From Alphaproteobacteria bacterium (lineage in GTDB: Bacteria; Pseudomonadota; Alphaproteobacteria; UBA8366; GCA-2717185), in NCBI GenBank assembly GCA_028822585.1, contig JAPKDL010000008.1, forward strand, positions 1,256 through 65,255: 64,000 nt of DNA, read 5' to 3'. The stretch's first letter is position 1; every line of letters starts with the position of its first letter. This document shows, piece by piece, positions 32,868 through 51,285 of this stretch. The translations under genes and the position numbers were made by a program. The notes under the pieces were generated by a model. It saw only the letters and a list, made by a program, of their open reading frames with translations. It searched no databases and was not told the origin of the DNA.

Positions 32868-32879
32868 CGGTTCATCGCT

Positions 32880-34052: not shown

Positions 34053-34119
34053 GTCGATTCCTTTGTTTCAATGTATTCGACAAAGGGTTCAGCTTAAACG
34101 AATCAAAAAACCTTACAAA

Positions 34120-35298: not shown

Positions 35299-35321
35299 GT
35301 GGGGGGGTGCTCGGTCGAAGG

Positions 35322-35966: not shown

Positions 35967-36053
35967 GGGTCTCTCTCCAGAAATTGGGCGACGCGCGCAC
36001 CATTCATCATCGCGACCCCAATGTCACGCCAGTGACGTCGCGCCGGTTAAAAT

Positions 36054-37223
36054 TTACCCCTCCGCCAATTCCTTTAACTGCTGGTAAACCTTCGACTTCA
36101 GCTCGATTCCAATACCTGGCGTGTCGTGTGGGCGGGCGTACCCGTCCACTATATCCACGTCATCGGCGAACCCGCCCCAAGGCTGGAACACCAGCGGGTA
36201 GGTTTCTGACCCGCCCAATTGCATGCCCGCCGCCATGTTGAACCCCAGCTGATGCCCGCCATGGGGAATTTGTTGGCGCCGGCTCCACCCTTGCTCAGTC
36301 ATCATCGCGTCCACCTTGAGGTATTCGGTGAACCCATAGGCCAGCGCCGGGTCGATCTGAATCCAGTCCAGTTCCGGGCGCATGCCGCCATATACCACCA
36401 GATTTTTTGCGTCCTGGGCGGAAAATAAATTCTCCCCCGTGGCCATGGACCCGGAATAATGCTGCGTCAGTTCCGCCTGCAGCGCGTAGTCCAGCGGGTC
36501 GCCAGGCTCTTCAAACCAGAACAGCTTGTAGGACTCCACTGCCTTGCCGAATGCGATAGCCTCGTCCAGCGAGAACCGCCCGTTGGCATCCACCGCCAGA
36601 TTCGCGCCGTCGCCCACCACCTCTAGCACGGCTTCGATGCGCCGCAAGTCGGTATCCAGATCGGCCCCACCGACCTTCATCTTCAACACTCGGTAGCCCT
36701 GTTCCTGATACGTCCGCATTTCCGCCTGCAGCGGCTCCAACCCTTTGCCGGGGTAGTAGTAGCCGCCGCCGGGATAGACCAGCACCCGGTCGTCATAGGC
36801 GCCGCCGTTGAACCGATTGGCGATCACCTGCCACAGCGGTTTTTCCTCCACCTTAGCGACAATGTCCCACATCGCCATGTCGATAACGGCCGCCGCCACT
36901 GCCCGGTCTCCGTGCCCGCCGGGCTTTTCGTTGCGCATCATTGCGCCCATCACCTTGGCCGGGTCAAAATTCGCACCCGCGCCATCTAGCAAGTCTACCG
37001 GCACCGCCTCCAACACCCGCGGGATCAAGCGTTCCCTCAAAATCCCACCCTGAGCGTAGCGCCCGTTTGACCCGACGCCATACCCGATGACCGGTTTCCC
37101 GTCGCGCACCACATCGGTAATGATAGCGCACACGCTGGCGGTCATCTTGGAGAAATCGATAGACGCGTTGCGCATGGCGGAATGAAGCGGAACGCTGCGT
37201 TCCCGGATATCGACGATTTTCAT
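36054..37223 (-). CDS. Enolase-superfamily enzyme (mandelate racemase/muconate lactonizing enzyme family, acid-sugar-dehydratase-like)
   Basis: KxK motif (LKMKVGG) and metal ligands in AVDANGRF, FEEP and ATGE. The true start is most likely ATG 37223 (MKIVDIRE...); the track ORF has an 86-codon 5' extension with no family similarity. Confidence 0.85.
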   Translation of the reverse strand: MKIVDIRERSVPLHSAMRNASIDFSKMTASVCAIITDVVRDGKPVIGYGVGSNGRYAQGGILRERLIPRVLEAVPVDLLDGAGANFDPAKVMGAMMRNEKPGGHGDRAVAAAVIDMAMWDIVAKVEEKPLWQVIANRFNGGAYDDRVLVYPGGGYYYPGKGLEPLQAEMRTYQEQGYRVLKMKVGGADLDTDLRRIEAVLEVVGDGANLAVDANGRFSLDEAIAFGKAVESYKLFWFEEPGDPLDYALQAELTQHYSGSMATGENLFSAQDAKNLVVYGGMRPELDWIQIDPALAYGFTEYLKVDAMMTEQGWSRRQQIPHGGHQLGFNMAAGMQLGGSETYPLVFQPWGGFADDVDIVDGYARPHDTPGIGIELKSKVYQQLKELAEG

Positions 37224-37492
37224 GTACGGGGCCTTTTGTAAAAAATTGAAGGACGATTGCTCAACCAACCTTGGAGTCCCGGCTTCGCTTGAATGACGAA
37301 TATTTGTGCATGCCGATTCATCTTTCATCACCGCCAAACGCGCTCTGGCGTTTCCAAAAACATTCGCATGAGATAGCTTGGCTATACATTTCATAACACC
37401 GCCCCCGGTCACGTCATATACCGTGGAGCGGTCACGGGATTTCGCATAATAGGAATATATGACCTTTTCAGGATTTTTCAAGGAGACATCAC

Positions 37493-38407
37493 ATGAGCGA
37501 CTTCGAATTCATCACCTACGAGATTGACGCCGGACGGGCGCGGATCACATTCAACCGCCCGGAAAAGCGCAACGCCTTGTCGATCCCCCTACTGGAGGAA
37601 TTGAACACAGCGCTCTGGGAGGCGGATAATGACAAGGGCGTGCATTGCGTCATCCTGCGCGGCGCGGGTCCGTGTTTCAGCGCTGGGTATGATTTGACGC
37701 CGACGCCGAACGCGCGTGTGGAAGGTGGCGATTCAACTCGCACCTACCGCGACGGCGGCATCTACGCCGACCCAACCATCGACGACGACATCTGGCGGCT
37801 GGAGCGCGGCCAGCGCCTGCGCATGACCCTGTTCGACATGCACAAGCCCACCATTGCCCAGGTCCACGGCTATTGCATTGCTGGGGGCACCGACATCGCA
37901 CTGCTGTGCGACATGGTGATCGTCGCCGACGATGCCACGATCGGCTTTCCGCCCGCGCGCGATCTAGGGTCGCTGCCGAACCAGATGTGGCTGTATCACT
38001 GCGGCCCGCAATGGACCAAACGGTTGCTGCTGACTGGTGACACCATCACCGGCGCGGAAGCCCCGCTCATCGGCTTCGCCATGAAGTCCGTGCCCGCCGA
38101 CATGCTGGAGGCTGAAGTCGAAGGTCTCGCCGACCGTCTGGCGAAGATCGATCCGGACTTGCTGTCGTCGAACAAGCGCATCGTCAATCTGGGCATGGAG
38201 CTGATGGGCGCGCGAACCCTGCAACGCCTGGCGGCGGAAAACGATGGGCGCGCCCATCTGGCGCCCGGCACAGCGGCATTTCGCCAAAACGCCAAGGAAA
38301 AAGGCCTCAAAGCGGCCCTGCAAGCCCGCGACGCCGATTTCGGCGACGGCCGCGCAAGGGTGGTTGGGCCGGAAGTGCGTGACGCGGATGGGCGATTGGT
38401 AGAGTAA
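37493..38407 (+). CDS. Enoyl-CoA hydratase/isomerase (crotonase) family protein
   Basis: ITFNRPEKRNAL, GAGPCFSAGYDL, HGYCIAGG. AAGGAG lies upstream of the ATG. Confidence 0.85.
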   Translation: MSDFEFITYEIDAGRARITFNRPEKRNALSIPLLEELNTALWEADNDKGVHCVILRGAGPCFSAGYDLTPTPNARVEGGDSTRTYRDGGIYADPTIDDDIWRLERGQRLRMTLFDMHKPTIAQVHGYCIAGGTDIALLCDMVIVADDATIGFPPARDLGSLPNQMWLYHCGPQWTKRLLLTGDTITGAEAPLIGFAMKSVPADMLEAEVEGLADRLAKIDPDLLSSNKRIVNLGMELMGARTLQRLAAENDGRAHLAPGTAAFRQNAKEKGLKAALQARDADFGDGRARVVGPEVRDADGRLVE

Positions 38408-38640: not shown

Positions 38641-39345
38641 CTAGGTCTCGCCGTTCAGACTCTGCCGCTGCTGGCCGTCCGCGTCGAAATTGTTGGGGCT
38701 GAGCCAGGCCTCGAAGTTAGCCTTCAACGCTGGCCATTCCGTATCGAGGATTGAGAACCAGTCGGTGTCACGGTTGCGGCCTTTATAGGTGGTGGCCTGG
38801 CGGAACCGGCCTTCATAGGTAAAGCCGAGCCGTGTGGCCGCGTTGCGTGAGGGTTCGTTGTATGAATCGCATTTCCATTCATAACGCCGATAACCCAATT
38901 CCTCGAAGACGCGCCGCATAAGCAAATACATGGTTTCGGTTGCGAGCTGCGTGCGTTGCAACGCGGGGCCGTAGTGAATATCACCAACTTCAATGCACCC
39001 AACGGCAGCGTCGATGCGCATCAGCGAGGCGACGCCCAGCGCTTTGTCTGTCGTGCGGTCAATAATCGTGTGGTATAGGCGTTCGTTGTTTGTCTCACTT
39101 TGGCGGCACCAGTCCTGGAAGGGCGTGAATTCGGTGAAGGGTTCATAGGATAAATAGGTCCACCCCACCCCCGTTTCGTCGACGGCGAAGGCGTCATATA
39201 AATCCTGCGCGTGCTTGTCGGCGTCCAGGGGCTCCAACCTGCACCAATGGCCGTCGAGGGGGCTTCTGGGGGGAAATGTCGCTGGCGTCCAGTCAGGAAC
39301 AGGCGCGCCGATGGGTTGTCCCAATGAATTAGTGTGAATGGTCAT
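38641..39345 (-). CDS. GNAT-family N-acetyltransferase (RimJ/RimL-like)
   Basis: Acetyltransf_3-like core (GVASLMRID, QRTQLATE, LGYRRYEWKCDSYNEPSRNAATRLGF). Start choice (39345 vs 39405) is uncertain. Confidence 0.75.
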   Translation of the reverse strand: MTIHTNSLGQPIGAPVPDWTPATFPPRSPLDGHWCRLEPLDADKHAQDLYDAFAVDETGVGWTYLSYEPFTEFTPFQDWCRQSETNNERLYHTIIDRTTDKALGVASLMRIDAAVGCIEVGDIHYGPALQRTQLATETMYLLMRRVFEELGYRRYEWKCDSYNEPSRNAATRLGFTYEGRFRQATTYKGRNRDTDWFSILDTEWPALKANFEAWLSPNNFDADGQQRQSLNGET

Positions 39346-39463
39346 TGTTTTGTGGCTCTTGAAGGTTGATGTTAACACACACTTTAACGATGGTTCTGAA
39401 GACATAGAAGGTCCAATGTGGTGGATTTTCCGGGTGCCAATTTGGATATCGGGGAAAAAGATT

Positions 39464-40267
39464 ATGAATGATAACGAATGGATAGATCCTTACGAAGGTT
39501 TTGTTTATCAAGAGGACACGATCACAATTGCGACCGTAGATCAGAACAAGGCCTTAATTGCCTGCGGCGTCGACCCGGCGCTGTACGATGGCAAGGCCGA
39601 CCCCTCGTTCTTTATATCCGAAGCGATTCGCGCGGGTGTCCGCAGCGGCATCACGTCGAACGGCAACGTCAACATGCTGCAATCCCTGGTGCAACACCGA
39701 CCGGTTGTTCTGGATGAGCCCTTGCGGGTTCAAGGCCAGATCACGGCGGTGCAGGCGGTGGCGCGGGGCCGGACCATCGACACGGATGTGTGGTTCGAAG
39801 GCGCCGATGGCGCACGGGCGATAACCGCCAAACGACGGACCTTGAAGCCCGGTCCCGACAAAGCCGGTACCGTTAATGCTGGCGGCGGCGCAGGGGAACG
39901 GCCGGCACCTATTGTTGAAGACCCGTTGGCATTGAACAATGTTGGCGACCACGCCCTGACGCCAGGCGGTGTGCTGGCGTATAGCTCCGAAGGCAATAGC
40001 ATCCATTTTGAGCCGGAGGCCGCGCGAAAGGCGGGGTTCCGCGCGCCGATCATCGGCGGCGGCATGGGGGTGCATTATTTGGTGGCGGCGCTCTGGGCGC
40101 ATGGAGAACCCGCAGGACCCGCCGAACTCGACCTCGATATTTATTTCCGGCGCCCCGTGTTCTGGGATGATGCCTTTAGCGTGCGGGTGGATGCGGACTG
40201 GCGCGTGATTTGTCTTGAAAAGGGCGGCAAGGTCTTGACCGAAGCCCGGTTGAATAGGGTCAGTTAA
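39464..40267 (+). CDS. Double-hotdog (MaoC-dehydratase-like) protein with a degenerate hydratase motif
   Basis: The C-terminal half has SSEGNSIHFEPEAARKAGFRAPIIGG, compared with the MaoC consensus SGDxNPIHxDPExA...GF..PIaHG. The N-terminal half has hotdog-like beta-strand periodicity. GGGGAAAAAG lies upstream of ATG 39464. Confidence 0.55.
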   Translation: MNDNEWIDPYEGFVYQEDTITIATVDQNKALIACGVDPALYDGKADPSFFISEAIRAGVRSGITSNGNVNMLQSLVQHRPVVLDEPLRVQGQITAVQAVARGRTIDTDVWFEGADGARAITAKRRTLKPGPDKAGTVNAGGGAGERPAPIVEDPLALNNVGDHALTPGGVLAYSSEGNSIHFEPEAARKAGFRAPIIGGGMGVHYLVAALWAHGEPAGPAELDLDIYFRRPVFWDDAFSVRVDADWRVICLEKGGKVLTEARLNRVS

Positions 40268-40270
40268 ACC

Positions 40271-41041
40271 GTGGTGAAAATTGATATAGGCAACCGTTTT
40301 TTGTTCAACCTGCTGGCCATTGCGGGGGTGGTGTTGGTGTTCTATGCCCTGGCATTTTCAGGGTTGGGCCCCGCATGGCGGGCGCAAGGCGGGCCGCTGC
40401 TGTATCTCGTCGCCGTGGCCGGGGCGGGGTTGTTGCTGGTGTCGGTCGTGTTCCTGATCGCCAAACGCACTGGCCTTGGGTCGCCCCGAATATGGTTCAT
40501 CGCCCATGTGATCGCGGCGACGGTGGGATTTGTGCTGGTGTCAATACACGCCGCCGGGTCGTTTTTCGAAGCCCCCGCGGTTTTGTTGGCGGTACTGGTG
40601 GGATTGATGGGGTTGGGCGTGTGGGCGCGGGTGCGGGCGGCGAATCTTATGGCCGGAACCTTCGCGACCAAGCGCGGTGGGTTCGCAGCCGCCGACCCGG
40701 AATTGATGGGTCGAATGCGTCGCTTGATTGAAGAAAAGAGAGCCGTGCTGGCGCGTCTGGACCCGAATGCGTCGGAAGCGTTGTTTTCGGTGACGTTGGG
40801 GCATTGGCTGCGGCACCCCGGTTTGGCGGTGGCGTATCATAAGCTGGCCCGTACCGAGGAAGGCCTCGTCGGAGCGCGGCAATCCGTTGGCGCCGCGCAG
40901 GCGTGGTGGCGGTCGCTGCATATGGCGCTGGCGGGACTATTTATCGCGGGCTTGATAACCCATATTGTCGTGGTGACGTTTTTCGCAGGTTATGTCGCGG
41001 AAGGCCGGGATATTTATTGGTGGCACTTGGCGGCTTGGTAA
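40271..41041 (+). CDS. Integral membrane protein, 5 predicted TM helices, candidate di-haem b-type cytochrome (H-x13-H in TM3 and TM5)
   Basis: His79/His93 (FIAHVIAATVGFVLVSIHAAG) and His217/His231 (LHMALAGLFIAGLITHIVV). A basic ~95-aa loop separates TM4 and TM5. The GTG start is 3 nt after the upstream stop. The CDS call is solid; the haem function is inference. Confidence 0.6.
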   Translation: MVKIDIGNRFLFNLLAIAGVVLVFYALAFSGLGPAWRAQGGPLLYLVAVAGAGLLLVSVVFLIAKRTGLGSPRIWFIAHVIAATVGFVLVSIHAAGSFFEAPAVLLAVLVGLMGLGVWARVRAANLMAGTFATKRGGFAAADPELMGRMRRLIEEKRAVLARLDPNASEALFSVTLGHWLRHPGLAVAYHKLARTEEGLVGARQSVGAAQAWWRSLHMALAGLFIAGLITHIVVVTFFAGYVAEGRDIYWWHLAAW

Positions 41042-41058
41042 GCAAAGGATGGTGAATT

Positions 41059-44049
41059 GTGACGGCTGAAGACTCGAACGCGGGTGAACGATTGTCTCTG
41101 ATGATCGACATCGCGCGGTGCACCGGCTGCAAAAGCTGCGAGGTCGCATGCAAACAGGAACACGGGCTGGGCTCCGGCGTATATCGCAACAGGGTGCTGT
41201 GGCTGACGGGGGAAGCCGAAGCCGAAGCCGAAGCTGCGCCGACACCTGCGCCCACGCTCGATTTTCTCAACGTGACCTGCCAGCATTGCGAACGCCCGGC
41301 CTGTCTGCGCGCCTGTCCGGTCAGTCCCAAGGCCCTGTCCAAGGACCCGGTCACCGGCGTCGTCACCGTCAATGAAGACCGTTGCACTGGGTGTGGGGAA
41401 TGCGTTGTCGCGTGCCCTTATGGTGCCATTGGTTACGACCCCATCGACCATCACGCGGTGAAGTGTGATTTATGCGCCGATCGGCGGGCCGAGGGATTGG
41501 GTCCGGCCTGCGCCAGTGTCTGTCCGGGTAAGGCGATCCAGTTCGGCAAACACGATGTTCTCGTGTCCCAGGCGGCGGATTCGGGCCGCTCAGCAGGGGA
41601 ACATGACCCGTTCCTGATGGGACCGGGGACGGTTTACCTGGAACCCCTAAAGGAAGGCCCAGCGTTTTCGCTGGCGGCGTTGGCGCGCCGCAATGGCCCG
41701 GCTTTGATGGACGACCCGGACGCACGTGCCCAGATGGGAACCGATCCGACGGAATTTCCCTATCGCCATGCCCGCGCGGACCGAAAACCCAACCGGGTTG
41801 AAGCTGGTGGATGTGCGCTGTGTTTCAATTGCTGCACCACGAAGTTCCATTTTCGCGACGATAAACTGGTGCGCATTACCGGCAATGAGGAAGACCCGTT
41901 GCTGGAAGGCCGCGTCTGCCCGAAATCGCAATTATCCGTCCAACTTCACACCAGCGACAAAAGACTGACCGAACCCATGAAGCGCGTCGGCAAGCGCGGT
42001 GAGAATAAGTTCGAGCCGATTTCCTGGGATCAGGCGTTGGATGAAATCGCCGAAAAACTAAAGGCGTTGCGCGATAAATACGGCAGCGAGGCCCTCGCGC
42101 TGTTTTCTGGCACGCGGACGGGGATAATGGTTAACCGGGGTTATCTACGGCTGTTCGCGCAAATGTGGGGCACGCCAAACATCGAATCCACCGAAGCGTT
42201 CTGTTCGGCGGGCAAGAACATGGCTTATACCTTGATTCAAGGCGTGGGCGGGTCCGGTAACAGCTATACTGAAGGCGATATGGGCTCCGCCGAAATGTAC
42301 GTGTTCATCGGTGATAATCAGGCTGAAACTCGCCCGGTTTATTTCGGCATGATCAACGATTGGCGCCTGCGCAACGGTGCGCGTATGGTCGCCGTCGACC
42401 CACGCTTTACGGTCACCGCCAGCAAGGCGGATGAATGGTTGGCGATCCGGCCCGGCGCGGATATGGCGCTGGGGTTGGCGTTGATCCACCATATATTCGC
42501 GAACGATTTACACGACGCCGCGTTCTGTGAATCTGATATAATGGGTTGGTCGGAATGGCGCGACTTCGTGCTGGAGAAAAACTACGACGCGGATTGGGCG
42601 GCGCCGATCACTGACCTTCCCGCTGACGCCATCCGCCGTTTGGCGACCGATATCGCCAAAGCGGATGGCTGTGTGATCTTTGGCAGTCGGGGGCTTAATC
42701 AGCATTCCAATTCCTTACAAACCAACCGCGTGTTTATGTTCCTGGCGGCGATGACAGGGAATTGGGGGCGAGCGGGTGGCGCGTATTTCAACGTTGGCGC
42801 CGGGGTGCCGATTGAGGCGAACGCGCCGATGGAGCGTCGCGGCAAGATCGAGCGTCCGAAAATCCAATCCACCCCGGTTGCTTGGGCGGACGCCATCCGC
42901 ACCGGCAAGCCGTACCCGTTGAAAGGCTTGATCACCAGCAATAATCCGCTCGCCATGTGGCCGGACCAGACCAAGGCGCGCGAAGCGTTGGAAAGTTTGG
43001 ATTTGCTGGTCCATGTCGAATTATTCCCGAACGAAACCACGGCCTATGCCGATTATGTTCTACCTGCGGCGACGGGCATCGAAAAAGGCGAAATAGGTCG
43101 GTCTAACGACGACCGGCGCATTGTGTGGATCGATCAAATGATGGACCCGCCGGGCAACGCGAAACCAGACGGGTGGATTTGGACGGAGCTTGGAAAACGA
43201 CTCGGCTTCGACGATGTGATGAAGGAAGAATACAAGGATTCGGCCTTCTTCTGGGACGACGCGTTGATCGACAACGATCATATGCGTGGCGTGACGCAAA
43301 AACGCCTGCACAGTGTGCCCTATCGCTGGGTCCGGTTTCCCGTGGCCGATGAAACCGCGCCGGAAATCGAAACGTTGTATCTAAAAGGCACAACAGCGAT
43401 TGGCAAACCGGAAGGCCATCGTTTCCCCAGCAAAAGCGGCAAGCTTGAATTCTGGTCGCCGGACATGGAGACCAAGTTCAACGGGCTTGGCCTGTCAGCG
43501 TTTCCGGAATTTTATGGGGAGCGGGAACAACTGATTGACGGACCCTACATGGAGTTGCTGGAAGACGACGGCGCCGACGGCGTAATCTCGACTCTGCGCG
43601 CCGAGCCGACGATCAATTCGCCGGGACGAATTGTGCAGCCATCTGAACACGCGCCGGGTCAGGCGCTTCGGGATGCAGGCTATGACACGGAACTGGTGAC
43701 CGGGCGCCCGCCTGCACCGCAATTCCATGCCTGGACCCATTACGCGTGGCAGGCGCAGGAAATGTGGCCTGATTTATATATGCAAATTCACCCGGACAAG
43801 GCGGGCGCGTTGGGTATCGAGGACGGCAAGCGCGTGAAGGTTGAAACGTCCCATGGGGAGATTGAAGCGCGTGCCTGGGTCACCACCGGTATTCGCAAAA
43901 CATCTGTGTTCATCCCCATCGGTTGGGGCGAACAACAGCCGTATCACCCGTGGCGTCCGGTGAATTATCTGACGGACAAGGCGCAACGTGACCCATTGTC
44001 GGGTCAGACGAACCTCAAAACGTATCTATGCCGGGTGTCTCCGGCCTAA
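41059..44049 (+). CDS. Fusion protein: N-terminal four-cluster [4Fe-4S] ferredoxin (DmsB/PsrB/NrfC type) + bis-MGD molybdopterin oxidoreductase catalytic domain; no Tat signal
   Basis: Four Cys groups lie at residues 21-31, 74-86, 109-120 and 136-156. The FS0 motif C252-x2-C-x3-C-x27-C287 follows, with a candidate Mo-ligand Cys in TEAFCSAGKN. Molybdopterin and C-terminal dinucleotide-binding domains complete the protein. GTG start with AAGGA 9 nt upstream. Confidence 0.9.
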   Translation: MTAEDSNAGERLSLMIDIARCTGCKSCEVACKQEHGLGSGVYRNRVLWLTGEAEAEAEAAPTPAPTLDFLNVTCQHCERPACLRACPVSPKALSKDPVTGVVTVNEDRCTGCGECVVACPYGAIGYDPIDHHAVKCDLCADRRAEGLGPACASVCPGKAIQFGKHDVLVSQAADSGRSAGEHDPFLMGPGTVYLEPLKEGPAFSLAALARRNGPALMDDPDARAQMGTDPTEFPYRHARADRKPNRVEAGGCALCFNCCTTKFHFRDDKLVRITGNEEDPLLEGRVCPKSQLSVQLHTSDKRLTEPMKRVGKRGENKFEPISWDQALDEIAEKLKALRDKYGSEALALFSGTRTGIMVNRGYLRLFAQMWGTPNIESTEAFCSAGKNMAYTLIQGVGGSGNSYTEGDMGSAEMYVFIGDNQAETRPVYFGMINDWRLRNGARMVAVDPRFTVTASKADEWLAIRPGADMALGLALIHHIFANDLHDAAFCESDIMGWSEWRDFVLEKNYDADWAAPITDLPADAIRRLATDIAKADGCVIFGSRGLNQHSNSLQTNRVFMFLAAMTGNWGRAGGAYFNVGAGVPIEANAPMERRGKIERPKIQSTPVAWADAIRTGKPYPLKGLITSNNPLAMWPDQTKAREALESLDLLVHVELFPNETTAYADYVLPAATGIEKGEIGRSNDDRRIVWIDQMMDPPGNAKPDGWIWTELGKRLGFDDVMKEEYKDSAFFWDDALIDNDHMRGVTQKRLHSVPYRWVRFPVADETAPEIETLYLKGTTAIGKPEGHRFPSKSGKLEFWSPDMETKFNGLGLSAFPEFYGEREQLIDGPYMELLEDDGADGVISTLRAEPTINSPGRIVQPSEHAPGQALRDAGYDTELVTGRPPAPQFHAWTHYAWQAQEMWPDLYMQIHPDKAGALGIEDGKRVKVETSHGEIEARAWVTTGIRKTSVFIPIGWGEQQPYHPWRPVNYLTDKAQRDPLSGQTNLKTYLCRVSPA
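41212..41235 (+). repeat. In-frame hexanucleotide tandem repeat (GAAGCC)x3 + GAAGCT encoding (EA)4
   Basis: Read directly. It is followed by a Pro/Thr/Ala linker (AAPTPAPT) between Cys group I and II of the ferredoxin domain. Confidence 0.9.
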
Positions 44050-45059
44050 GCTTGGCTGTTTCCGGTCAATCGCCGGACTGCTTCGATGATTGCGGTGGGG
44101 TCGCCTTTGTTCTGCCCGGCGATGTCATGTCCGCTGCCATGAGCGACGGAGGAGAACAGGATCGGACTGCCGATGGACAAACCGGCGGTTCGCCGTGGTG
44201 CCAAAAGCTTGGCTGGGATGTGTCCCTGGTCGTGCAACATGACGACGAAGGCGTCGACATCAGTGCGGCTTAGCATCACGTCCGCGCCGACAGGGCCTTC
44301 GACATTGATGCCCGCGCCGCGTGCAGCTTCAATGGCTGGGGCGACGATGTCCCGGTCTTCATTACCAAACAACCCGTCTTCGCCCGCATGGGGGTTCAAT
44401 CCACCGACGAGTATTTTTGGTGCGCCGTCGCCAATATGGATCAGCGTGTCGTGCACGGCTTGGATGACTGCCTGCACACGATCAAACGTGATGAAGTCTA
44501 ACGACTTCCGGACGCTGGCGTGCAGGGTGCAGTGGGCTATTTTAATCTTGTCGAAGCACAGCATCAAAAATACGTCTTCCGGCGCCAGGCCGGTCTCCCG
44601 CGCGACAAAGGATGGATAACCGTCAAAGTCCACTCCGGTCAGCGCGATGGATTTCTGGTTTTGCGGCGCGGCGACTACTGCTGCCGCCTTTCCATCCAGG
44701 ACCGTCTTGATGGCGGTGGACGCACTATCGAGCGCGGCGAGACCGTTGGCGGCGTTGACCGCACCCAGTTCATAGGGCGCTTTGGTGAATTGGTCCCGCG
44801 CACACAATTTTACGCCCGGCTGGTTCCAATCGAATTGATCCGACGTAACTGCAATGTCAAAATTGATTGGCATGCCACAAGCGTTTGCTTGCAAATTGAG
44901 CACTACGGGGTCGCCAAATAAGACTGGCCGGCATATGTCGGTGAGCGCTGTACTCTGCGCGGCCTTGAGGCAGAGTTCGGGGCCGATCCCGCCAGGATCG
45001 CCCGTGGCGAGCGCCACGATGGGTGGTTCGGTGGTCAAATTTTGAAACTTTCCAGGCAT
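44046..45059 (-). CDS. PdxA-family NAD-dependent dehydrogenase (4-hydroxythreonine-4-phosphate dehydrogenase family; also includes TphB-type diol dehydrogenases)
   Basis: TGDPGGIGPE N-terminal motif, NPHAGE, and SVAHGSGHDIAG metal-binding C-terminus. Confidence 0.85.
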   Translation of the reverse strand: MPGKFQNLTTEPPIVALATGDPGGIGPELCLKAAQSTALTDICRPVLFGDPVVLNLQANACGMPINFDIAVTSDQFDWNQPGVKLCARDQFTKAPYELGAVNAANGLAALDSASTAIKTVLDGKAAAVVAAPQNQKSIALTGVDFDGYPSFVARETGLAPEDVFLMLCFDKIKIAHCTLHASVRKSLDFITFDRVQAVIQAVHDTLIHIGDGAPKILVGGLNPHAGEDGLFGNEDRDIVAPAIEAARGAGINVEGPVGADVMLSRTDVDAFVVMLHDQGHIPAKLLAPRRTAGLSIGSPILFSSVAHGSGHDIAGQNKGDPTAIIEAVRRLTGNSQA

Positions 45060-46027
45060 TCCGGCGCGAATAGGTCTTCCGGCTCCAATTTACGCGCCGA
45101 CAGCCCTTGTTCATGATGAATGCGCAAAAAGACATCAAGCGTATCGCGGTTTTCCGCAAACCCATACGCCCACCAATCTTTGCCAAATGTCTCGATGGTT
45201 TCCTCAACATGGGCGACGAGCCAGGGCAGCATATATTTCATTGCCGCCGTTTCAAAATAATTTTCATGCGCGCGGCGCTTGGATTCCTCGAACGCCTTGA
45301 ACAGCGCCATGGCGACCCAGGGGTGTTTTTCATAGACATCGCGCCGGATGACGACAGTGTGCATGATCGGAAAGATATTTGTCTCGGCGTAATAGGCCTG
45401 TTCGACTTCCTTGTAGTCTGGGAACAATCGCCGGATTGTGCCGGGACGGCTGTCCATGGTCGTGGGCTTGCGCGCCGTGTGCAACGCGTCAATTTCACCA
45501 TCGGCAAGCATTTGCGACAGGGTCTGGCCCGGCCCGATACGGTGGATGTGGAACTTCTCCGGTAATGTGATGGCGAGTTTTTCGTCGCGGTTGGGTTCTT
45601 CTTCGCCGCCGCAATAATATTCCACCGATGCCGCGTCGACGCCGTAATGGTCCGACAGAATGCCGCGAATCCACACCGGCGCGGTCATTTGATATTCCGG
45701 CGTGCCTATCTTGCGGCCAATCAAATCCTGCGGCGTTTCGATGCCGCTTTTGGTGTTCACATAAATGCTGGAATGCCGAAACATGCGTGATGGGAAAACG
45801 GGGATTGCGATAAAGGGCGAATCCTTCAACAACGACACAGTATACGACGACAGCGACATCTCGGCTACGTCAAATTCACGATAGCGCAGCATCCGAAAGA
45901 ACGTCTCTTCAACGGGAAGTGTTTGGTAGATGAGATCTATGCCGTCGGGCGTGACAGTCCCGTCCGCCAAGGATCGGGTGCGGTCATAGTCCCAACACGC
46001 GAGACTCAATTTAAGTCGCTGCGCCAT
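45035..46027 (-). CDS. 4,5-dihydroxyphthalate-decarboxylase-like protein (periplasmic-binding-protein/NMT1-like fold)
   Basis: N-terminus MAQRLKLSLACWDYDRTRSLADGTVTPDGIDL...FFRMLRYREFDVAEMSLSSY matches my recollection of this family. AGGAG lies 10 nt upstream of ATG 46027; the track ORF carries a 56-codon spurious extension. Confidence 0.6.
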   Translation of the reverse strand: MAQRLKLSLACWDYDRTRSLADGTVTPDGIDLIYQTLPVEETFFRMLRYREFDVAEMSLSSYTVSLLKDSPFIAIPVFPSRMFRHSSIYVNTKSGIETPQDLIGRKIGTPEYQMTAPVWIRGILSDHYGVDAASVEYYCGGEEEPNRDEKLAITLPEKFHIHRIGPGQTLSQMLADGEIDALHTARKPTTMDSRPGTIRRLFPDYKEVEQAYYAETNIFPIMHTVVIRRDVYEKHPWVAMALFKAFEESKRRAHENYFETAAMKYMLPWLVAHVEETIETFGKDWWAYGFAENRDTLDVFLRIHHEQGLSARKLEPEDLFAPECLESFKI

Positions 46028-46046
46028 AGTGCGGATCTCCTGAAAA

Positions 46047-47330
46047 TTAAACGGTGAGGGGGTCTGACCCTGGTTCCGGGAACAACCCGTGTTTTGAGCC
46101 TTCGACGAAATTCGTGTCCTTGGGCAATTCGATGGCGACGGAGCGGACCCCTTGATGTTCCGGCGCAAGGCCCTTGAACGGTTCGCCTTTTGCATTGGCG
46201 GTTGCCGCGCGGGTGAGTTCGCTGCGGGCCATTGCGATGCCGGTGTCGGTCAGGCACAAATTTTCCATGGTGCGGTTTTGGATCGAGCCCATGCTTTCCT
46301 GCAAGGACGCGTCCTGCATGGCGATGCCTTCCACGCCGCTATAGGTACGGCCTGCCTTTTGGCCTTCACGATCCATCAGGTAGTCGTTGCGCCTATTGGC
46401 AGTGGGAATGAAAGTGCCGGGCACATAGGTTACATGGATGCCTTTGCCTGCAATCATCGCGGCGCGTTCATCGGCAGTCAAATCGCGGCTGGGGTGGTAA
46501 TTGATGCTCCACGCCCAGCAATTATGATCGTCAATAGGGACCCAGGCGTGCCCGCCAATTGGATGACCGGCGCGGGGGGGGATGAGACTGTACCACGGCA
46601 TGATCCAGGGCGTGATGCGCCAGTAATATTGATCGTTTTCGGCATTGCGTCGCGCCCCGATCAGGATGCCGCCATCGAATGCTTCGGCCTCGAACAAGGG
46701 CATGCGGTCTTCTTCGTTGTACTGATTGCCCTTGGAGCCGGCGAATAGAGGGTCGTTTTGAAGCGCACTGCCGTGCAGCCATGACACATGGCTAGAGTCG
46801 ATGCCGCCTTCCATAGCCTGCAAGTAGTTGCATTCCTGCAGGCGTTTGGAGACGTACAGCTGACCTGGTGAAACTTCGGTCCATTCCAACGCAGGTTCGG
46901 GTGGCCGTTGGCCCGGGGGTCCCATATATGCCCAAATAATTCCCGCTTTTTCTATACAAGGGTATGATTTTAGTTTGATGCGTTCGCGCGTACCGGTACT
47001 GTCGTCTTCAGAAGGAAGATCAACGCACTGGCCGGTCACGTCGTACTTCCAACCGTGATAAGGGCAGCGAATGCCGCATTCTTCGTTCCGCCCATACCAC
47101 AGTGAGACGCCGCGATGCGCACAAAATTCGTCGATCAAGCCTAACTTGCCTTCGGTGTCGCGAAAGGCGATCAAGTTTTCGCCCATCAACCGTGCCCGCA
47201 CTGGGGAACAGTCTGGTTCAGGCAATTCGCTAGACAATAGGAAGGGTGCCCAAAACCGGCGCATGAGACCGCCCATGGGCGTGCCTTGGTCCGTTGAACA
47301 CAGGAATTGGTTACGTTCCTCTGACAGCAT
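46047..47330 (-). CDS. Rieske [2Fe-2S] non-haem-iron oxygenase, alpha subunit of the phthalate-dioxygenase (class IA, alpha-only) type
   Basis: Rieske motif CAHRG-x..-CPYHGWKY and mononuclear iron motif DSSHVSWLH. AGGGGG lies 6 nt upstream of ATG 47330. Confidence 0.85.
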   Translation of the reverse strand: MLSEERNQFLCSTDQGTPMGGLMRRFWAPFLLSSELPEPDCSPVRARLMGENLIAFRDTEGKLGLIDEFCAHRGVSLWYGRNEECGIRCPYHGWKYDVTGQCVDLPSEDDSTGTRERIKLKSYPCIEKAGIIWAYMGPPGQRPPEPALEWTEVSPGQLYVSKRLQECNYLQAMEGGIDSSHVSWLHGSALQNDPLFAGSKGNQYNEEDRMPLFEAEAFDGGILIGARRNAENDQYYWRITPWIMPWYSLIPPRAGHPIGGHAWVPIDDHNCWAWSINYHPSRDLTADERAAMIAGKGIHVTYVPGTFIPTANRRNDYLMDREGQKAGRTYSGVEGIAMQDASLQESMGSIQNRTMENLCLTDTGIAMARSELTRAATANAKGEPFKGLAPEHQGVRSVAIELPKDTNFVEGSKHGLFPEPGSDPLTV

Positions 47331-47465
47331 CCACGACCCCCTATCGTAAATCACAGATCAAAATTTCGTTGATGAAAGCTGCCTTTGTAAAACCCGCGGC
47401 GGGAAGAGTTTGCAAACCCGATGAAATTCAGCTTTCCTTGAGACAGCATTTAACGGGAGAATAAG

Positions 47466-48632
47466 ATGACTCTAAAATCCGCACAAGGCCCATTGGTTGG
47501 CGTAAAAATTATTGAATTGGCGGGGATTGGACCGGGACCTTTATGTTCGGCTCTGCTGGCCGATATGGGGGCGGATATCCTGCGTATCGACCGCCCGGCA
47601 CCCGCCGATATTGGCGGCCCGCGCCCGGCACGTGCCGATGTTGCGCGGCGGGGACGATATTCGGTTTCCGTCGATCTCAAAAATGCGCAGGGTGTGGATA
47701 CAATTTTGCGATTGGCGAAAAATGCCGACGCCATTCTGGATCCGTTCCGGCCCGGCGTGACAGAACGGCTGGGCCTTGGGCCGGATGACGTATTCGCCCG
47801 CAACAAGCGGATCATCTATGGCCGCATGACGGGGTGGGGACAGGACGGTCCGCTCGGCCAGGCGGCGGGGCATGATTTGAACTATCTGGCGATCACCGGT
47901 GTCTTGAACGCCATTGGCCCGAAAGAAATGCCGGTGCCGCCGTTGAACGTGGTCGCCGATATGGGTGGCGGTGCAATGTTCTTGGCGGTAGGCGTGCTTG
48001 CGGGGATTATCGAAGCCCGGCAATCCGGCAAAGGACAAGTGGTGGACGCCGCCATGGTCGAAGGTTCGGCCTATCTGGGCATGGGGCAGTTCGGCATGGT
48101 AGCGACGAATGCGCGCGTCAACGAACGCGCCGCCAATTCGACTGATGGCGGATCGCATTTTTACCGGTGCTATAAAACAAGCGATGACAAATTTGTATCC
48201 ATCGCCTCCATAGAACGAAAATTCTACGCTAATTTGTTGGACAAACTGAATCTGAACCCCGCTGATTTGCCGGAACAGCACGACGAATCGACGTGGCCCG
48301 ATATGGCCACGAAATTTGAAGGCATTTTTCGACAAAAAACTCAAATCGAGTGGACGGAAATCATGGGCGATACCGATATTTGTTACGCCCCGGTGTTGGA
48401 CTTCGAGGAAGCACCGAGACATCCGCACAATGTTGCGCGCGGTAATTTCGTCGAAGTGGATGGCGTGGTGCAGCCGCGTCCCGCGCCCCGGTTCAGCCGT
48501 ACGCCATCCGCAGTGCAATCCGCGCCACCGGTCGTCGGCGCCGACACGCGCACAGGTTTGGCATCCTGGGGCTTCAGTGACAGCGAGATAGATGAACTGG
48601 AAGCCCGAAAAGCGATTGGCTGGCAAGGTTAA
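47466..48632 (+). CDS. Family III CoA-transferase (alpha-methylacyl-CoA racemase-like)
   Basis: GVKIIELAGIGPGPLC..DMGADILRIDR, DPFRPGVTERLG. GGGAGAA lies upstream of the ATG. Confidence 0.9.
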   Translation: MTLKSAQGPLVGVKIIELAGIGPGPLCSALLADMGADILRIDRPAPADIGGPRPARADVARRGRYSVSVDLKNAQGVDTILRLAKNADAILDPFRPGVTERLGLGPDDVFARNKRIIYGRMTGWGQDGPLGQAAGHDLNYLAITGVLNAIGPKEMPVPPLNVVADMGGGAMFLAVGVLAGIIEARQSGKGQVVDAAMVEGSAYLGMGQFGMVATNARVNERAANSTDGGSHFYRCYKTSDDKFVSIASIERKFYANLLDKLNLNPADLPEQHDESTWPDMATKFEGIFRQKTQIEWTEIMGDTDICYAPVLDFEEAPRHPHNVARGNFVEVDGVVQPRPAPRFSRTPSAVQSAPPVVGADTRTGLASWGFSDSEIDELEARKAIGWQG

Positions 48633-48638
48633 GGGGAC

Positions 48639-49781: not shown

Positions 49782-49806
49782 CCGCTAAAGCAAGGAGAGC
49801 AAAACC

Positions 49807-50274: not shown

Positions 50275-50302
50275 GTACAGACTATAAATCGGAGGCATAA
50301 CC

Positions 50303-51280: not shown

Positions 51281-51285
51281 CACAC

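What the first reader, a model, noticed from the sequence alone, without database searches (positions are those of the whole stretch)
39464..44049. Candidate undescribed membrane-linked molybdoenzyme: hotdog protein + H-x13-H x2 membrane protein + ferredoxin-fused, Tat-less bis-MGD oxidoreductase
Seen directly:
- Three same-strand genes are separated by only 3 and 17 nt.
- The 996-aa product starts with four Cys groups: CxxCxxCxxxC, CxxCx4Cx3CP, CxxCxxCx3CP and CxxCx11Cx3CP. That is the DmsB/PsrB/NrfC four-cluster pattern.
- After a ~90-aa linker comes the canonical catalytic-subunit FS0 motif C252-x2-C-x3-C-x27-C287, a likely Mo-ligand Cys (TEAFCSAGKN), and a full molybdopterin domain.
- The N-terminus (MTAEDSNAGERLSLM) has no twin-arginine signal.
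- The preceding 256-aa protein has 5 predicted TM helices. His79/His93 lie in TM3 and His217/His231 in TM5, each pair exactly 13 residues apart.
- By the positive-inside rule both helices run cytoplasm to periplasm. His79+His217 and His93+His231 would then form two stacked bis-His haem sites.

Established knowledge: this His geometry is the one used by cytochrome b of bc1 and by ferric-reductase-domain proteins. In characterised complex iron-sulfur molybdoenzymes (DmsABC, PsrABC, FdnGHI, NarGHI) the alpha and beta subunits are separate polypeptides. Their anchors (NarI, FdnI, PsrC, DmsC) look different from this protein.

Inference: this is a beta-alpha fused, cytoplasm-facing enzyme wired to a new type of di-haem anchor. 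The substrate is unknown. The co-transcribed double-hotdog protein has a degenerate MaoC motif (Glu for the catalytic Asp), which hints at an acyl or thioester-type substrate or a scaffolding role.
Basis: partly seen in the sequence, partly recalled or inferred. Interest (0 to 1): 0.8.

Follow-up and report, generated by a model that had tools for sequence, protein, structure and literature searches.

The report
Uncharacterised two-gene membrane-bound molybdoenzyme

Summary
The sequence observations are correct.

- **Fusion gene, 41059-44049.** It encodes a Tat-less fusion of a four-cluster DmsB/PsrB-type ferredoxin and a complete bis-MGD catalytic subunit. All 16 ferredoxin Cys, the four FS0 Cys and Cys382 are invariant in homologues. 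Cys382 aligns with the Mo-ligand Cys173 of Thermus PsrA.
- **Membrane gene, 40271-41041.** It encodes a 5-TM, N-in/C-out protein. H79, H93, H217 and H231 are conserved down to 22% identity.
- **Linkage.** The two genes are adjacent in 78 of 80 genomes examined; the other two contigs end too early to tell. They stay adjacent in divergent members, once in reversed order.
- **Classification.** No curated enzyme family, solved structure or paper covers the pair. The best 80 genome hits are all MAGs (Alpha-, Beta-, Lambdaproteobacteria, Nitrospinota).

- The hotdog gene is linked only in the window's own clade and belongs to an independent MaoC-like family.
- The anchor is a distant, sub-threshold relative of DUF4405, a class shown in 2024 to bind haem b.
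- Fused alpha/beta subunits have a precedent in ActB.

Best model: a NarGHI-like wiring of Mo, five Fe-S clusters and two haems to quinone. Substrate and direction are unknown. This is a new variant of a known kind.

The parts
40271..41041 (+). Membrane subunit, 256 aa, 5 TM, N-in/C-out; putative di-haem cytochrome b anchor (distant DUF4405-like)
   Evidence: H79, H93, H217 and H231 are invariant in 24 homologues and conserved down to 22% identity. Topology comes from K+R counts. All 24 members give weak DUF4405 hits. A fusion gene is adjacent in 78 of 80 loci.
40505..40549 (+). TM3 His pair: H79 (40505-40507, cytoplasmic side) and H93 (40547-40549, periplasmic side)
   Evidence: Codons verified; invariant in alignments A1 and A3.
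40919..40963 (+). TM5 His pair: H217 (40919-40921, cytoplasmic side) and H231 (40961-40963, periplasmic side)
   Evidence: Codons verified. Invariant in A1 and at least 90% conserved in A3. This is the only segment that aligns with FdnI H155/H169, and not significantly.
40634..40900 (+). Cytoplasmic loop 4 (residues 122-210): basic, with invariant K156, E169 and E196; inferred docking surface for the fusion enzyme
   Evidence: Mean 15.7 K+R across homologues. Invariant residues hold in divergent members. The docking role is an inference.
41045..41049 (+). Shine-Dalgarno-like AAGGA, about 10 nt upstream of the fusion start codon
   Evidence: Read directly from the sequence.
41059..44049 (+). 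996-aa fused subunit: four-cluster ferredoxin (beta) + linker + bis-MGD catalytic domain (alpha); no signal peptide
   Evidence: Pfam and NCBIfam domains. 899 homologues, the listed ones sharing the architecture. AF2 model pTM 0.73. Foldseek places it with Fdh, Nap, Psr and acetylene hydratase.
41089..41583 (+). DmsB/PsrB/NrfC-type ferredoxin domain (residues 11-175) with 16 Cys in four groups, i.e. four [4Fe-4S]-type sites
   Evidence: Fer4_11 83 bits. TIGR02951 DmsB 128 bits, below its 214-bit cut-off. All 16 Cys invariant; codons verified.
41212..41234 (+). (GAAGCC)x3.8 hexanucleotide repeat encoding an EAEAEAEA insert in a ferredoxin-domain loop; absent from most homologues
41584..41793 (+). 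Linker of about 70 residues (176-245), poorly conserved and low confidence in the model
   Evidence: pLDDT below 50 for residues 182-232; variable and gapped in the alignment.
41794..41943 (+). FS0 [4Fe-4S] motif C252-x2-C255-x3-C259-x27-C287
   Evidence: Molybdop_Fe4S4 20.4 bits, just under its cut-off. The four Cys are invariant and align with the FS0 segment of PsrA, FdhF and acetylene hydratase.
41962..43200 (+). Molybdopterin oxidoreductase domain (residues 302-714), including the putative Mo ligand Cys382 (42202-42204)
   Evidence: PF00384 at 163 bits. C382 is invariant and aligns with PsrA Cys173 and the FdhF Sec/Cys position. It is followed by Ser, not the His of formate dehydrogenases.
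43693..44022 (+). Molybdopterin dinucleotide-binding domain (residues 879-988)
   Evidence: PF01568 at 78 bits.
39464..40267 (+). MaoC-like hotdog protein (267 aa): probably co-transcribed here, but a clade-specific neighbour and NOT part of the conserved module
   Evidence: Present in only 2 of 80 loci, even with an HMM search. It has its own family of 658 hits. Three of three homologue loci lack the pair. The motif [E/D]-G-N-x-I-H is conserved.

Best explanation
Genes 40271-41041 and 41059-44049 encode a two-subunit, membrane-bound, cytoplasm-facing molybdenum (or tungsten) bis-MGD oxidoreductase of a family nobody has characterised.

The 996-aa subunit combines, in one polypeptide, a DmsB/PsrB-type ferredoxin with four Fe-S clusters and a catalytic domain with the FS0 cluster and a Cys-ligated Mo centre. 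It has no export signal, so it stays in the cytoplasm. There it docks on the 5-TM partner, probably on that protein's long basic cytoplasmic loop.

The partner uses two H-x13-H pairs on TM3 and TM5 to bind two stacked b haems, one near each face of the membrane. Electrons would therefore travel Mo - FS0 - FS1-4 - cytoplasmic haem - periplasmic haem - quinone/quinol site. This is the same wiring logic as nitrate reductase NarGHI.

I lean (roughly 50:35) towards a quinol-oxidising reductase of a cytoplasmic substrate that adds to the proton-motive force, over a dehydrogenase that feeds quinone. The substrate is unknown.

Shown: the domains, the invariant ligand residues, the topology and the obligatory gene pairing. 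Inferred: haem binding, the docking site, the quinone link, the direction and the substrate. The upstream hotdog gene is not part of the enzyme.
For: - **Domains and ligands:** Pfam and NCBIfam domains; all 21 cluster and Mo-ligand Cys invariant; C382 aligns with the PsrA Cys173 position.
- **Fold:** the catalytic domain resembles Fdh, Nap, Psr and acetylene hydratase with TM up to 0.8.
- **Cytoplasmic location:** the ORF is maximal, and homologues start directly at the first Cys group.
- **Anchor:** four His invariant or nearly so down to 22% identity. Positive-inside counts of about 20.8 against 2.7 give TM3 and TM5 the same orientation, pairing H79 with H217 and H93 with H231. All 24 members weakly hit DUF4405, a class shown experimentally to bind haem b through four central His (PMC11334425).
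- **Coupling:** adjacency in 78 of 80 genomes. It is retained in 22% and 35% identical members, once with the gene order reversed. No third gene is conserved.
- **NarGHI as the wiring model:** a NarGH catalytic dimer anchored to the membrane by the di-haem cytochrome b NarI (PMC10609526); its cytoplasm-facing orientation is from my own knowledge.
Against: - No experiment exists on any member, so haem, Mo and quinone involvement are all inferred.
- The anchor scores below the DUF4405 cut-off (18.6 against 26.7 bits). It has no significant match to NarI, FdnI or any solved structure, and its model is only moderate (pLDDT 72.6).
- Direction is unresolved. No FNR/CRP-type box was found upstream in 0 of 79 loci, and the hosts look mostly aerobic, which does not favour a classical anaerobic reductase.
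- Gene neighbourhoods show no consistent transporter, regulator or pathway.
- No dedicated NarJ/TorD-type chaperone gene is linked.
Confidence: 0.72

Rival explanations
1. Same complex, opposite direction. It is a dehydrogenase that oxidises a cytoplasmic substrate (for example sulfite, an aldehyde or an organic acid or thioester) and passes the electrons through the haems to quinone, feeding the aerobic respiratory chain. The known parallels would be di-haem succinate:quinone reductases or the cytoplasm-facing SoeABC.
For: - Hosts are mostly aerobic or microaerobic lineages: marine Alphaproteobacteria, freshwater Burkholderiales, Nitrospinota.
- No FNR-type box lies upstream.
- TauD or luciferase-type genes, some family members of which release sulfite, occur near the pair in several loci. 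TauD is within 8 kb in 7 of 80 loci and in three of the loci looked up separately.
- Cytoplasm-facing, Tat-less enzymes of this class that act as dehydrogenases are known, such as SoeABC (PMC8076601, listed; my own knowledge of Dahl et al. 2013).
Against: - A quinone site on the far side of two transmembrane haems would dissipate proton-motive force for a low-potential donor, yet both haem pairs are strictly conserved.
- TauD, CoA-transferase and MR_MLE neighbours occur in a minority of loci, and these families are abundant in such genomes, so no enrichment is shown.
- No curated dehydrogenase family is matched at its cut-off.
Confidence: 0.3
2. The pair is a transmembrane electron exporter, not a quinone enzyme. 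The cytoplasmic molybdoenzyme oxidises a substrate, and the two haems carry the electrons across the membrane to a periplasmic acceptor, as proposed for MsrQ, PepSY-like and DUF4405 cytochromes.
For: - The anchor's only detectable relatives are DUF4405 proteins. [quoted passage not shown]
- A conserved periplasmic C-terminal motif (FFAGYVA..G..YWWH, with H252 invariant) could be an interaction or redox site.
Against: - No periplasmic partner gene (flavoprotein, ApbE, cytochrome c or MsrP-like) is conserved next to the pair.
- The DUF4405 link is sub-threshold.
- No precedent exists for a bis-MGD enzyme as the cytoplasmic donor.
Confidence: 0.1
3. A three-gene system. The hotdog protein is a functional subunit or substrate-handling partner, which would imply an acyl or thioester substrate (compare phenylacetyl-CoA:acceptor oxidoreductase PadBCD).
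For: - There is a 3-nt gap between the hotdog and membrane genes.
- The trio is also present in three close relatives: L001, L002 and the P0122 locus.
- The window is rich in CoA-transferase, acyl-CoA dehydrogenase and enoyl-CoA hydratase genes.
- A PadBCD-type membrane-bound Mo-Fe-S enzyme acting on a CoA ester exists (my own knowledge, not tested here).
Against: - The hotdog is absent from 78 of 80 loci, even with an HMM search.
- The hotdog family is large and independent (658 hits).
- Three of three homologue loci elsewhere lack the pair.
- Other lineages have unrelated genes upstream.
Confidence: 0.07

Closest known systems
NarGHI respiratory nitrate reductase (E. coli)
   Same: It works like this. 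A bis-MGD catalytic unit with FS0 and a four-cluster ferredoxin sits on the cytoplasmic face of the membrane without Tat export. It is anchored by a 5-TM di-haem cytochrome b that carries electrons between a quinol site and the cytoplasm (composition per PMC10609526; cytoplasmic orientation and TM count from my own knowledge).
   Different: - Not a member. NarG and NarH are separate polypeptides, and per PMC10609526 FS0 is His-coordinated.
- From my own knowledge, NarG uses an Asp Mo ligand, and the NarI His spacing (H-x9-H and H-x17-H) differs from the H-x13-H pairs here.
- No NarI HMM or hhalign match was found.
- The catalytic domain is closer to Psr, Fdh and Nap than to the Nar / type II enzymes.
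- No NarJ-type chaperone gene is linked.
Polysulfide/thiosulfate reductase PsrABC/PhsABC (Thermus PsrABC, PDB 2vpw)
   Same: It is the closest solved catalytic subunit by sequence (E 1e-66). The Cys ligand position aligns, as does the FS0 motif. The ferredoxin domain matches PsrB/NrfC.
   Different: - NCBIfam PhsA scores 304 bits against a 694-bit cut-off, and identity is only about 24%.
- From my own knowledge, Psr is Tat-exported and periplasmic, and its anchor is a haem-free NrfD-type PsrC.
- PsrA and PsrB are separate subunits.
FdhF/FdhH-type formate dehydrogenases
   Same: TIGR01591 is the top NCBIfam hit (308 bits). Several of the best structural matches are formate dehydrogenases, and some of these enzymes are cytoplasmic.
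   Different: - The score is far below the 666-bit cut-off.
- The residue after the ligand Cys is Ser, not the His seen at that position in the aligned FdhF.
- N-terminal Fe-S extensions of FdsA/YjgC-type enzymes are NuoG-like (PMC10100899), not DmsB-like.
DUF4405 / MsrQ / PepSY-like / FezC cytochromes b (PMC11334425)
   Same: Small membrane proteins with four central, highly conserved His, proposed or shown to bind haem b and move electrons in the membrane. DUF4405 is the only Pfam family hit by all 24 anchor homologues.
   Different: - The hit is sub-threshold for the window protein (18.6 against 26.7 bits) and covers only TM5.
- The anchor has 5 TM plus an 89-residue cytoplasmic loop, against the 6 TM described for DUF4405.
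- Its family is sharply bounded, with 283 representatives in 1.84 billion.
- The described DUF4405 proteins sit in ApbE/flavinylation clusters, not next to molybdoenzymes.
FdnI/FdoI/HyaC (Ni_hydr_CYTB) di-haem anchors
   Same: A di-haem cytochrome b anchor of a Mo (or NiFe) enzyme. An H-x13-H pair on one helix (FdnI H155/H169) is the only segment that aligns with the H217/H231 pair. The DUF4405 HMM co-hits this family (PMC12727194).
   Different: - The match is not significant (hhalign E 0.15), and only 3 of 24 members hit PF01292 weakly.
- From my own knowledge, FdnI takes its other two His from two different helices and serves a periplasmic enzyme.
ActB of Alternative Complex III; PsrBC fusions
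   Same: Both are precedents for fusing subunits of this enzyme class into one polypeptide (PMC10100899; PMC3906813).
   Different: - ActB has lost the Mo cofactor and three Fe-S clusters (PMC10100899). From my own knowledge it is arranged alpha-then-beta and is periplasmic.
- PsrBC fuses the ferredoxin to the membrane subunit.
- Here the order is beta-then-alpha, all ligands are intact, and the protein is cytoplasmic.
SoeABC sulfite dehydrogenase; PadBCD phenylacetyl-CoA:acceptor oxidoreductase
   Same: Cytoplasm-facing, Tat-less, membrane-bound enzymes of the same class (PMC8076601, listed; my own knowledge).
   Different: From my own knowledge, each has three separate subunits and a haem-free NrfD/DmsC-type anchor. 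No specific sequence relationship was tested or seen among the top NCBIfam hits.

Membership tests
Mo/W-bisPGD (DMSO reductase / MopB) superfamily, catalytic subunit | Molybdopterin oxidoreductase domain and dinucleotide-binding domain above Pfam cut-offs | tested here: met
   PF00384 scores 163 bits (cut-off 24) and PF01568 scores 78 bits (cut-off 26.8). Foldseek TM is up to 0.8 to NapA and FdhH.
Mo/W-bisPGD (DMSO reductase / MopB) superfamily, catalytic subunit | N-terminal FS0 Cys motif and a protein ligand to Mo at the conserved position | tested here: met
   C252, C255, C259, C287 and C382 are invariant. C382 aligns with PsrA Cys173 and the FdhF Sec/Cys position.
Mo/W-bisPGD (DMSO reductase / MopB) superfamily, catalytic subunit | Actually contains Mo or W bis-MGD | not testable with these tools
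   Needs metal and cofactor analysis of the protein.
Four-cluster ferredoxin subunit (DmsB/PsrB/NrfC/FdnH type) | Four Cys groups (16 Cys) and a Fer4_11 match | tested here: met
   PF13247 scores 83 bits (cut-off 26.2). All 16 Cys are invariant. The DmsB equivalog TIGR02951 scores only 128 bits against a 214-bit cut-off, so this is membership of the type, not of DmsB itself.
Named enzyme equivalogs (Fdh-alpha, PhsA, NasC, DmsA, NapA, ArrA, TtrA, and others) | Whole-protein score reaches the curated NCBIfam cut-off | tested here: not met
   The best scores are 308 against 666 (Fdh-alpha) and 304 against 694 (PhsA). All others are lower.
Formate dehydrogenase | His immediately after the Sec/Cys Mo ligand | tested here: not met
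   The query has C382-S383 where FdhF has C-H. S383 is not His in any of the 22 homologues.
Tat-exported periplasmic enzymes of this class (DmsABC, PsrABC, FdnGHI) | Twin-arginine signal peptide on the catalytic or ferredoxin subunit | tested here: not met
   The ORF is maximal from 41059, and the N-terminus MTAEDSNAGERLSLM runs straight into Cys group I. Homologues start at MSRLALMIDLERC. Longer upstream frames in L015 and L034 are unconserved and lack an RR motif.
DUF4405 (PF14358) cytochrome b | Pfam gathering score reached | tested here: inconclusive
   The window protein scores 18.6 bits against a 26.7-bit cut-off, covering residues 205-233 only. All 24 homologues hit the family, with a best E of 2e-6.
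DUF4405 (PF14358) cytochrome b | Four centrally placed, highly conserved His; binds haem b | tested here: inconclusive
   The four conserved His are met. Haem binding is not testable here. The helix count differs: 5 here against the 6 described in PMC11334425.
NarI (nitrate reductase gamma) | Sequence or profile similarity to NarI | tested here: not met
   No PF02665 hit in any of the 24 members at E <= 1. hhalign against E. coli NarI gives E 0.52.
FdnI/HyaC (Ni_hydr_CYTB, PF01292) | Sequence or profile similarity | tested here: not met
   Only 3 of 24 members hit, with a best E of 0.023. hhalign against E. coli FdnI gives E 0.15 over 25 columns.
Ferric-reductase domain (PF01794) / cytochrome b of bc1 (PF00033) | HMM match | tested here: not met
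   Neither family appears among the hits of the 24 members at E <= 1. Only the H-x13-H x2 pattern is shared, which is a resemblance from my own knowledge.
ActB (Alternative Complex III) fusion | Loss of the Mo cofactor and three [4Fe-4S] clusters (PMC10100899); alpha-then-beta order and periplasmic location (own knowledge) | tested here: not met
   Here the order is beta-then-alpha, there is no signal peptide, and all 16 ferredoxin Cys and the Mo-ligand Cys are retained. The ActB description comes from PMC10100899.
MaoC-like hydratase/dehydratase (the hotdog gene) | PF01575 cut-off and the hydratase-2 motif D-x-N-P-[LIV]-H | tested here: inconclusive
   PF01575 scores 22.2 bits against a 27-bit cut-off. 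The motif [E/D]-G-N-x-I-H is conserved, with Glu and Asp alternating. Some homologues carry a precomputed PF01575 hit.
Conserved three-gene system (hotdog + anchor + fusion) | Co-occurrence of all three genes across genomes | tested here: not met
   The hotdog is present in 2 of 80 loci. Three of three hotdog homologue loci lack the pair.

The most novel reading that the evidence does not exclude
The pair defines a previously unrecognised kind of respiratory module: a single-polypeptide ferredoxin-molybdoenzyme on the cytoplasmic face, wired through its own new family of di-haem cytochrome b. It would catalyse a quinone-linked (or transmembrane electron-exporting) reaction with a substrate not handled by any characterised enzyme of this class. 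It would operate in widespread uncultured lineages that appear mostly aerobic, including the nitrite-oxidising Nitrospinota.
Probability: 0.35. Interest if true: 0.78.

Novelty: new variant of a known kind. Interest (0 to 1): 0.62.

Why it matters
Enzymes of this class carry out many of the key redox steps of the nitrogen, sulfur, arsenic, selenium and carbon cycles. Each newly characterised clade has tended to reveal a new reaction.

Here is a clade with three unusual features together:
- a beta-alpha fusion;
- a cytoplasmic orientation;
- a private family of four-His anchors.

It is present in at least 225 species-level genomes and hundreds of metagenomic protein clusters. It has no name and no known substrate, and none of the 80 genome hits I could inspect comes from a cultured isolate.

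The module has only two genes, which makes it an unusually tractable target for heterologous expression. It also offers a simple model for how a cytoplasmic Fe-S chain docks on a minimal di-haem membrane wire.

If it proves to be a redox-loop reductase or an electron exporter in aerobes such as Nitrospinota and marine Alphaproteobacteria, that would add an unrecognised branch to their energy metabolism.

Tried and rejected
2. **Profile comparison with E. coli FdnI and NarI.** Neither was significant.
3. **Substrate from gene context.** Clustering all flanking ORFs of 80 loci found no third conserved gene. The recurrent neighbours are lineage-specific housekeeping or general metabolism genes. 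TauD, CoA-transferase, MR_MLE and ECH genes recur in a few loci, but only 1-7 of 80 by tblastn, so I did not accept a sulfonate/sulfite or acyl-CoA theme.
4. **Pair inserted into a hotdog-CoA-transferase operon.** In L091 a hotdog homologue overlaps a CoA-transferase gene, but that transferase is only 24% identical to the window's, so there is no orthology.
5. **Regulatory clues.** No FNR/CRP-type box in 0 of 79 upstream regions. No Rfam element such as a Moco riboswitch. Promoter and terminator matches were at or below chance.
6. **A hidden third ORF or Tat leader in loci with long gaps between the two genes.** It is only spacer.
7. **Literature.** Seven searches found no description of this fusion-plus-anchor module.
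8. **A concatenated anchor-plus-ferredoxin structure prediction.** I considered it and did not run it.

Full report
**1. What is in the sequence**

- The stop-to-start gaps are 3 and 17 nt, and an AAGGA lies about 10 nt before the third start.
- Both downstream ORFs already begin at the first possible start after an in-frame stop, so no longer N-terminus exists.
- The 996-aa protein matches Fer4_11 (residues 68-164, 83 bits), Molybdopterin (302-714, 163 bits) and Molydop_binding (879-988, 78 bits). Molybdop_Fe4S4 scores just below its cut-off (252-293, 20.4 against 22.7 bits).

**2. The fusion is real and conserved**

- A search of 5.8 billion proteins returned 899 relatives. Apart from two evidently truncated entries, the 120 listed are 969-1012 aa long and have the same domain content at 63-99% identity. 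Where named, they are called only 'molybdopterin-dependent oxidoreductase'.
- In 22 aligned homologues, all 16 ferredoxin Cys, the four FS0 Cys and Cys382 are invariant. Many sequences begin 'MSRLALMIDLERC', directly at Cys group I, so there is no room for a signal peptide.
- Cys382 aligns with residue 173 of Thermus PsrA (SLC173TAPR) and with the Cys/Sec position of FdhF. The next residue is Ser, not the His found there in the aligned FdhF.
- An AlphaFold model (pTM 0.73) has a confident catalytic core and a disordered linker at residues 182-232.
- Its best structural matches are FdhA, NapA, acetylene hydratase, FdhH and PsrA at 18-24% identity.
- No NCBIfam equivalog comes near its cut-off. 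The best are Fdh-alpha at 308 against 666 bits and PhsA at 304 against 694 bits.

The catalytic domain is therefore an orphan inside the Fdh/Nap/Psr part of the superfamily.

**3. The membrane protein**

- It has 322 relatives, and every one that carries a name is called 'hypothetical' or 'uncharacterized membrane protein'.
- H79, H93, H217 and H231 are invariant in 24 sequences down to 48% identity, as is H252.
- An exhaustive HMM search of 1.84 billion representatives found only 283 hits, many of them fragments. The family is small and sharply bounded.
- In its most divergent full-length members (22-46% identity), H79 and H93 are still invariant and H217 and H231 are at least 90% conserved. 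R66, G116, R120, K156, E169, E196 and R214 are also invariant.
- Hydropathy gives five TM segments. K+R counts across homologues are about 20.8 in the N-terminus, loop 2 and loop 4, against about 2.7 in loop 1, loop 3 and the C-terminus. The protein is therefore N-in/C-out, and TM3 and TM5 both run from the cytoplasm outwards.
- This places H79 with H217 near the cytoplasmic face and H93 with H231 near the periplasmic face, which is the geometry needed for two stacked bis-His haems. The 89-residue basic loop 4 is cytoplasmic.

**4. What the anchor is related to**

- The window protein hits only DUF4405, below the cut-off (18.6 against 26.7 bits, TM5 only). All 24 homologues hit DUF4405 (best E 2e-6), and 3 hit Ni_hydr_CYTB weakly. 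None hits the NarI, ferric-reductase or cytochrome b families.
- DUF4405 proteins were shown in 2024 to bind haem b and to have four central conserved His. They resemble MsrQ, PepSY-like proteins and FezC, but they were found in ApbE/flavinylation clusters, not next to molybdoenzymes (PMC11334425).
- The DUF4405 HMM also co-hits the Ni_hydr_CYTB gene clusters that include E. coli b0974 and b3892 (PMC12727194).
- hhalign of the family against E. coli FdnI aligned only H217..H231 with FdnI H155..H169, and not significantly (E 0.15). The comparison with NarI gave nothing.
- The PDB profile search and Foldseek gave nothing significant. The model itself is moderate (pLDDT 72.6).

The anchor is best described as a new, distant branch of the prokaryotic di-haem cytochrome b superfamily. 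It is not a member of any characterised anchor family.

**5. Linkage**

- A scan of 185,579 species genomes found 225 that encode a relative of the membrane protein. The best 80 are all MAGs: Alphaproteobacteria including Rhodospirillaceae, Hyphomicrobiaceae and Methyloligellaceae, as well as Burkholderiales, Lambdaproteobacteria and Nitrospinota.
- tblastn found the fusion immediately downstream of the membrane gene in 78 of 80 loci. The other two are contig ends.
- In a 22%-identical member (L088), the downstream gene opens with the same ferredoxin N-terminus. In a 35%-identical member (L087), the fusion's C-terminus lies immediately upstream, so the order is reversed but adjacency is kept.
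- Clustering of all flanking ORFs found no third conserved gene.
- The recurrent neighbours are lineage-specific: an ADP-forming acyl-CoA synthetase/GNAT protein, GreA, hydantoinase A/B, aminotransferases, ThiG, TrmB, and GntR or Crp regulators.
- Where the gap between the two genes is long (L015, L034), it is plain spacer.

**6. The hotdog gene is a neighbour, not a subunit**

- tblastn and an HMM built from three sequences found it only in L001 and L002, the window's closest relatives among the 80 loci. It is also present in the 87%-identical P0122 locus.
- It belongs to a separate family of 658 relatives, mostly from Pseudomonadales and Gammaproteobacteria MAGs and labelled 'acyl dehydratase' where named.
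- Three of three loci of such homologues lack the molybdoenzyme pair.
- Its motif [E/D]-G-N-x-I-H is conserved, with Glu and Asp alternating. It looks like an ordinary MaoC-type enzyme, consistent with the CoA-transferase, acyl-CoA dehydrogenase and enoyl-CoA hydratase genes that fill this part of the window.

**7. Mechanism**

The best-supported reading is a two-subunit enzyme of the complex iron-sulfur molybdoenzyme kind that faces the cytoplasm.

- The proposed electron path is Mo - FS0 - four ferredoxin clusters - cytoplasmic haem (H79/H217) - periplasmic haem (H93/H231) - quinone site. This is the wiring logic of NarGHI, in which a NarGH catalytic dimer is anchored by the di-haem cytochrome b NarI (PMC10609526).
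- Shown here: the ligand sets, the topology and the obligatory pairing.
- Inferred: haem and Mo content, docking on loop 4, the quinone link and the direction.
- Strict conservation of both haem pairs argues that electron transfer across the membrane is integral. That is energetically sensible for a quinol-driven reductase of a cytoplasmic substrate (a redox half-loop).
- Against this, the apparently aerobic hosts and the absence of FNR/CRP-type boxes (0 of 79 upstream regions) keep the dehydrogenase direction alive.
- A quinone-independent electron-export role, by analogy with DUF4405 and MsrQ, cannot be excluded, but no periplasmic partner gene is conserved.
- The substrate cannot be deduced. 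The neighbourhoods are inconsistent, and no riboswitch or other RNA element is present.

**8. Comparison with known systems and novelty**

- It works like NarGHI but fails every sequence test for membership.
- Its catalytic domain is nearest to Psr/Phs and FdhF-type enzymes but far below their thresholds, and it lacks the formate dehydrogenase His.
- Its ferredoxin domain is of the DmsB/PsrB type.
- Subunit fusion has precedents: ActB, which has lost its Mo cofactor (PMC10100899) and, from my own knowledge, has the opposite domain order and is periplasmic; and PsrBC fusions (PMC3906813). I found no description of a beta-alpha fusion with intact ligands.
- Cytoplasm-facing, Tat-less relatives exist (SoeABC, PadBCD; PMC8076601 listed, and my own knowledge), but they have separate subunits and haem-free anchors.
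- Seven literature searches found no description of this module.

I rate it a new variant of a known kind: widespread, uncharacterised and experimentally tractable. It is interesting to specialists but not categorically new.

**9.

It is correct on the fused, Tat-less, cytoplasm-facing enzyme and its four-His partner. It is incorrect on the hotdog protein as part of the system, and so on the acyl-substrate hint. It is overstated on the anchor being of an entirely new type and on alpha and beta subunits always being separate.

Noticed in passing
window 41212-41234: A perfect (GAAGCC)x3.8 hexanucleotide repeat encodes an 'EAEAEAEA' insert, followed by AAPTPAPT, in a surface loop of the ferredoxin domain. 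Most homologues lack it. One (P0200) has a different, longer insert at the same spot, so this loop tolerates slippage-type insertions.
   Followed up: partly
window 44046-47354 (- strand): A three-gene minus-strand block sits between the fusion gene and the downstream CoA-transferase: a PdxA-like dehydrogenase, a 334-386 aa protein with no Pfam hit, and a Rieske/LigXa-type oxygenase. The same block is present in the 87%-identical P0122 locus. It is absent in L002, where the CoA-transferase (84% identical) follows the fusion directly, so it looks like an inserted cassette. The fusion and PdxA-like ORFs converge and overlap by 4 nt (44046-44049).
   Followed up: partly
window 30527-38407 and 47466-52119: The surroundings are a dense catabolic island. 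It holds two family III CoA-transferases, two acyl-CoA dehydrogenases, two MFS transporters, an enolase-superfamily (MR_MLE) enzyme, an enoyl-CoA hydratase and a luciferase-like monooxygenase. The next ORF (51277-52119) corresponds by position to the TauD-type dioxygenase called in the 87%-identical P0122 locus. A similar MR_MLE + CoA-transferase + ECH + TauD set lies near the pair in an Ectothiorhodospiraceae MAG (L083), but not generally.
   Followed up: partly
window 36054-37481 (-) and 39338-40267 (+): The mechanical longest ORFs overextend the likely genes. The MR_MLE protein's TTG start adds about 90 residues with no domain match. The hotdog ORF from 39338 overlaps the divergent GNAT gene (38641-39405). 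The ATG at 39464 matches the homologues' N-termini.
   Followed up: partly
L087 (JGI 3300012355 contig, 1659 nt): In a divergent subgroup of the anchor family (about 35% identity, C-terminus ending YWWH[LV]R), the gene order is reversed: the fusion comes first and the membrane protein follows 10 nt later. This subgroup also has an insertion in the cytoplasmic loop.
   Followed up: partly
L086:1-6350 (Lambdaproteobacteria MAG): About 3-8 kb upstream of the pair lies a different membrane-bound system: a Fer4_11 ferredoxin, an NrfD-type membrane subunit, a large FlpD/Fer4 protein and a NarJ/TorD-family chaperone. The same genome therefore carries both a classical NrfD-anchored complex and the new cytochrome-b-anchored pair.
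   Followed up: no
L091:7001-9039: A hotdog homologue (about 60% identical to the window's) overlaps a family III CoA-transferase gene by 4 nt. This suggests the hotdog family usually works with CoA-transferases. The transferase is only 24% identical to the window's, so it is not an orthologue.
   Followed up: yes
membrane protein C-terminus, window 40964-41038: The periplasmic end of TM5 and the C-terminal tail carry the most conserved stretch of the family (VTFFAGYVA-G--IYWWH, with H252 invariant in the core group). It lies next to the outer haem site and is a candidate quinone or partner-binding site. Three very divergent members (P0339, P0347, P0353) lack this tail.
   Followed up: partly
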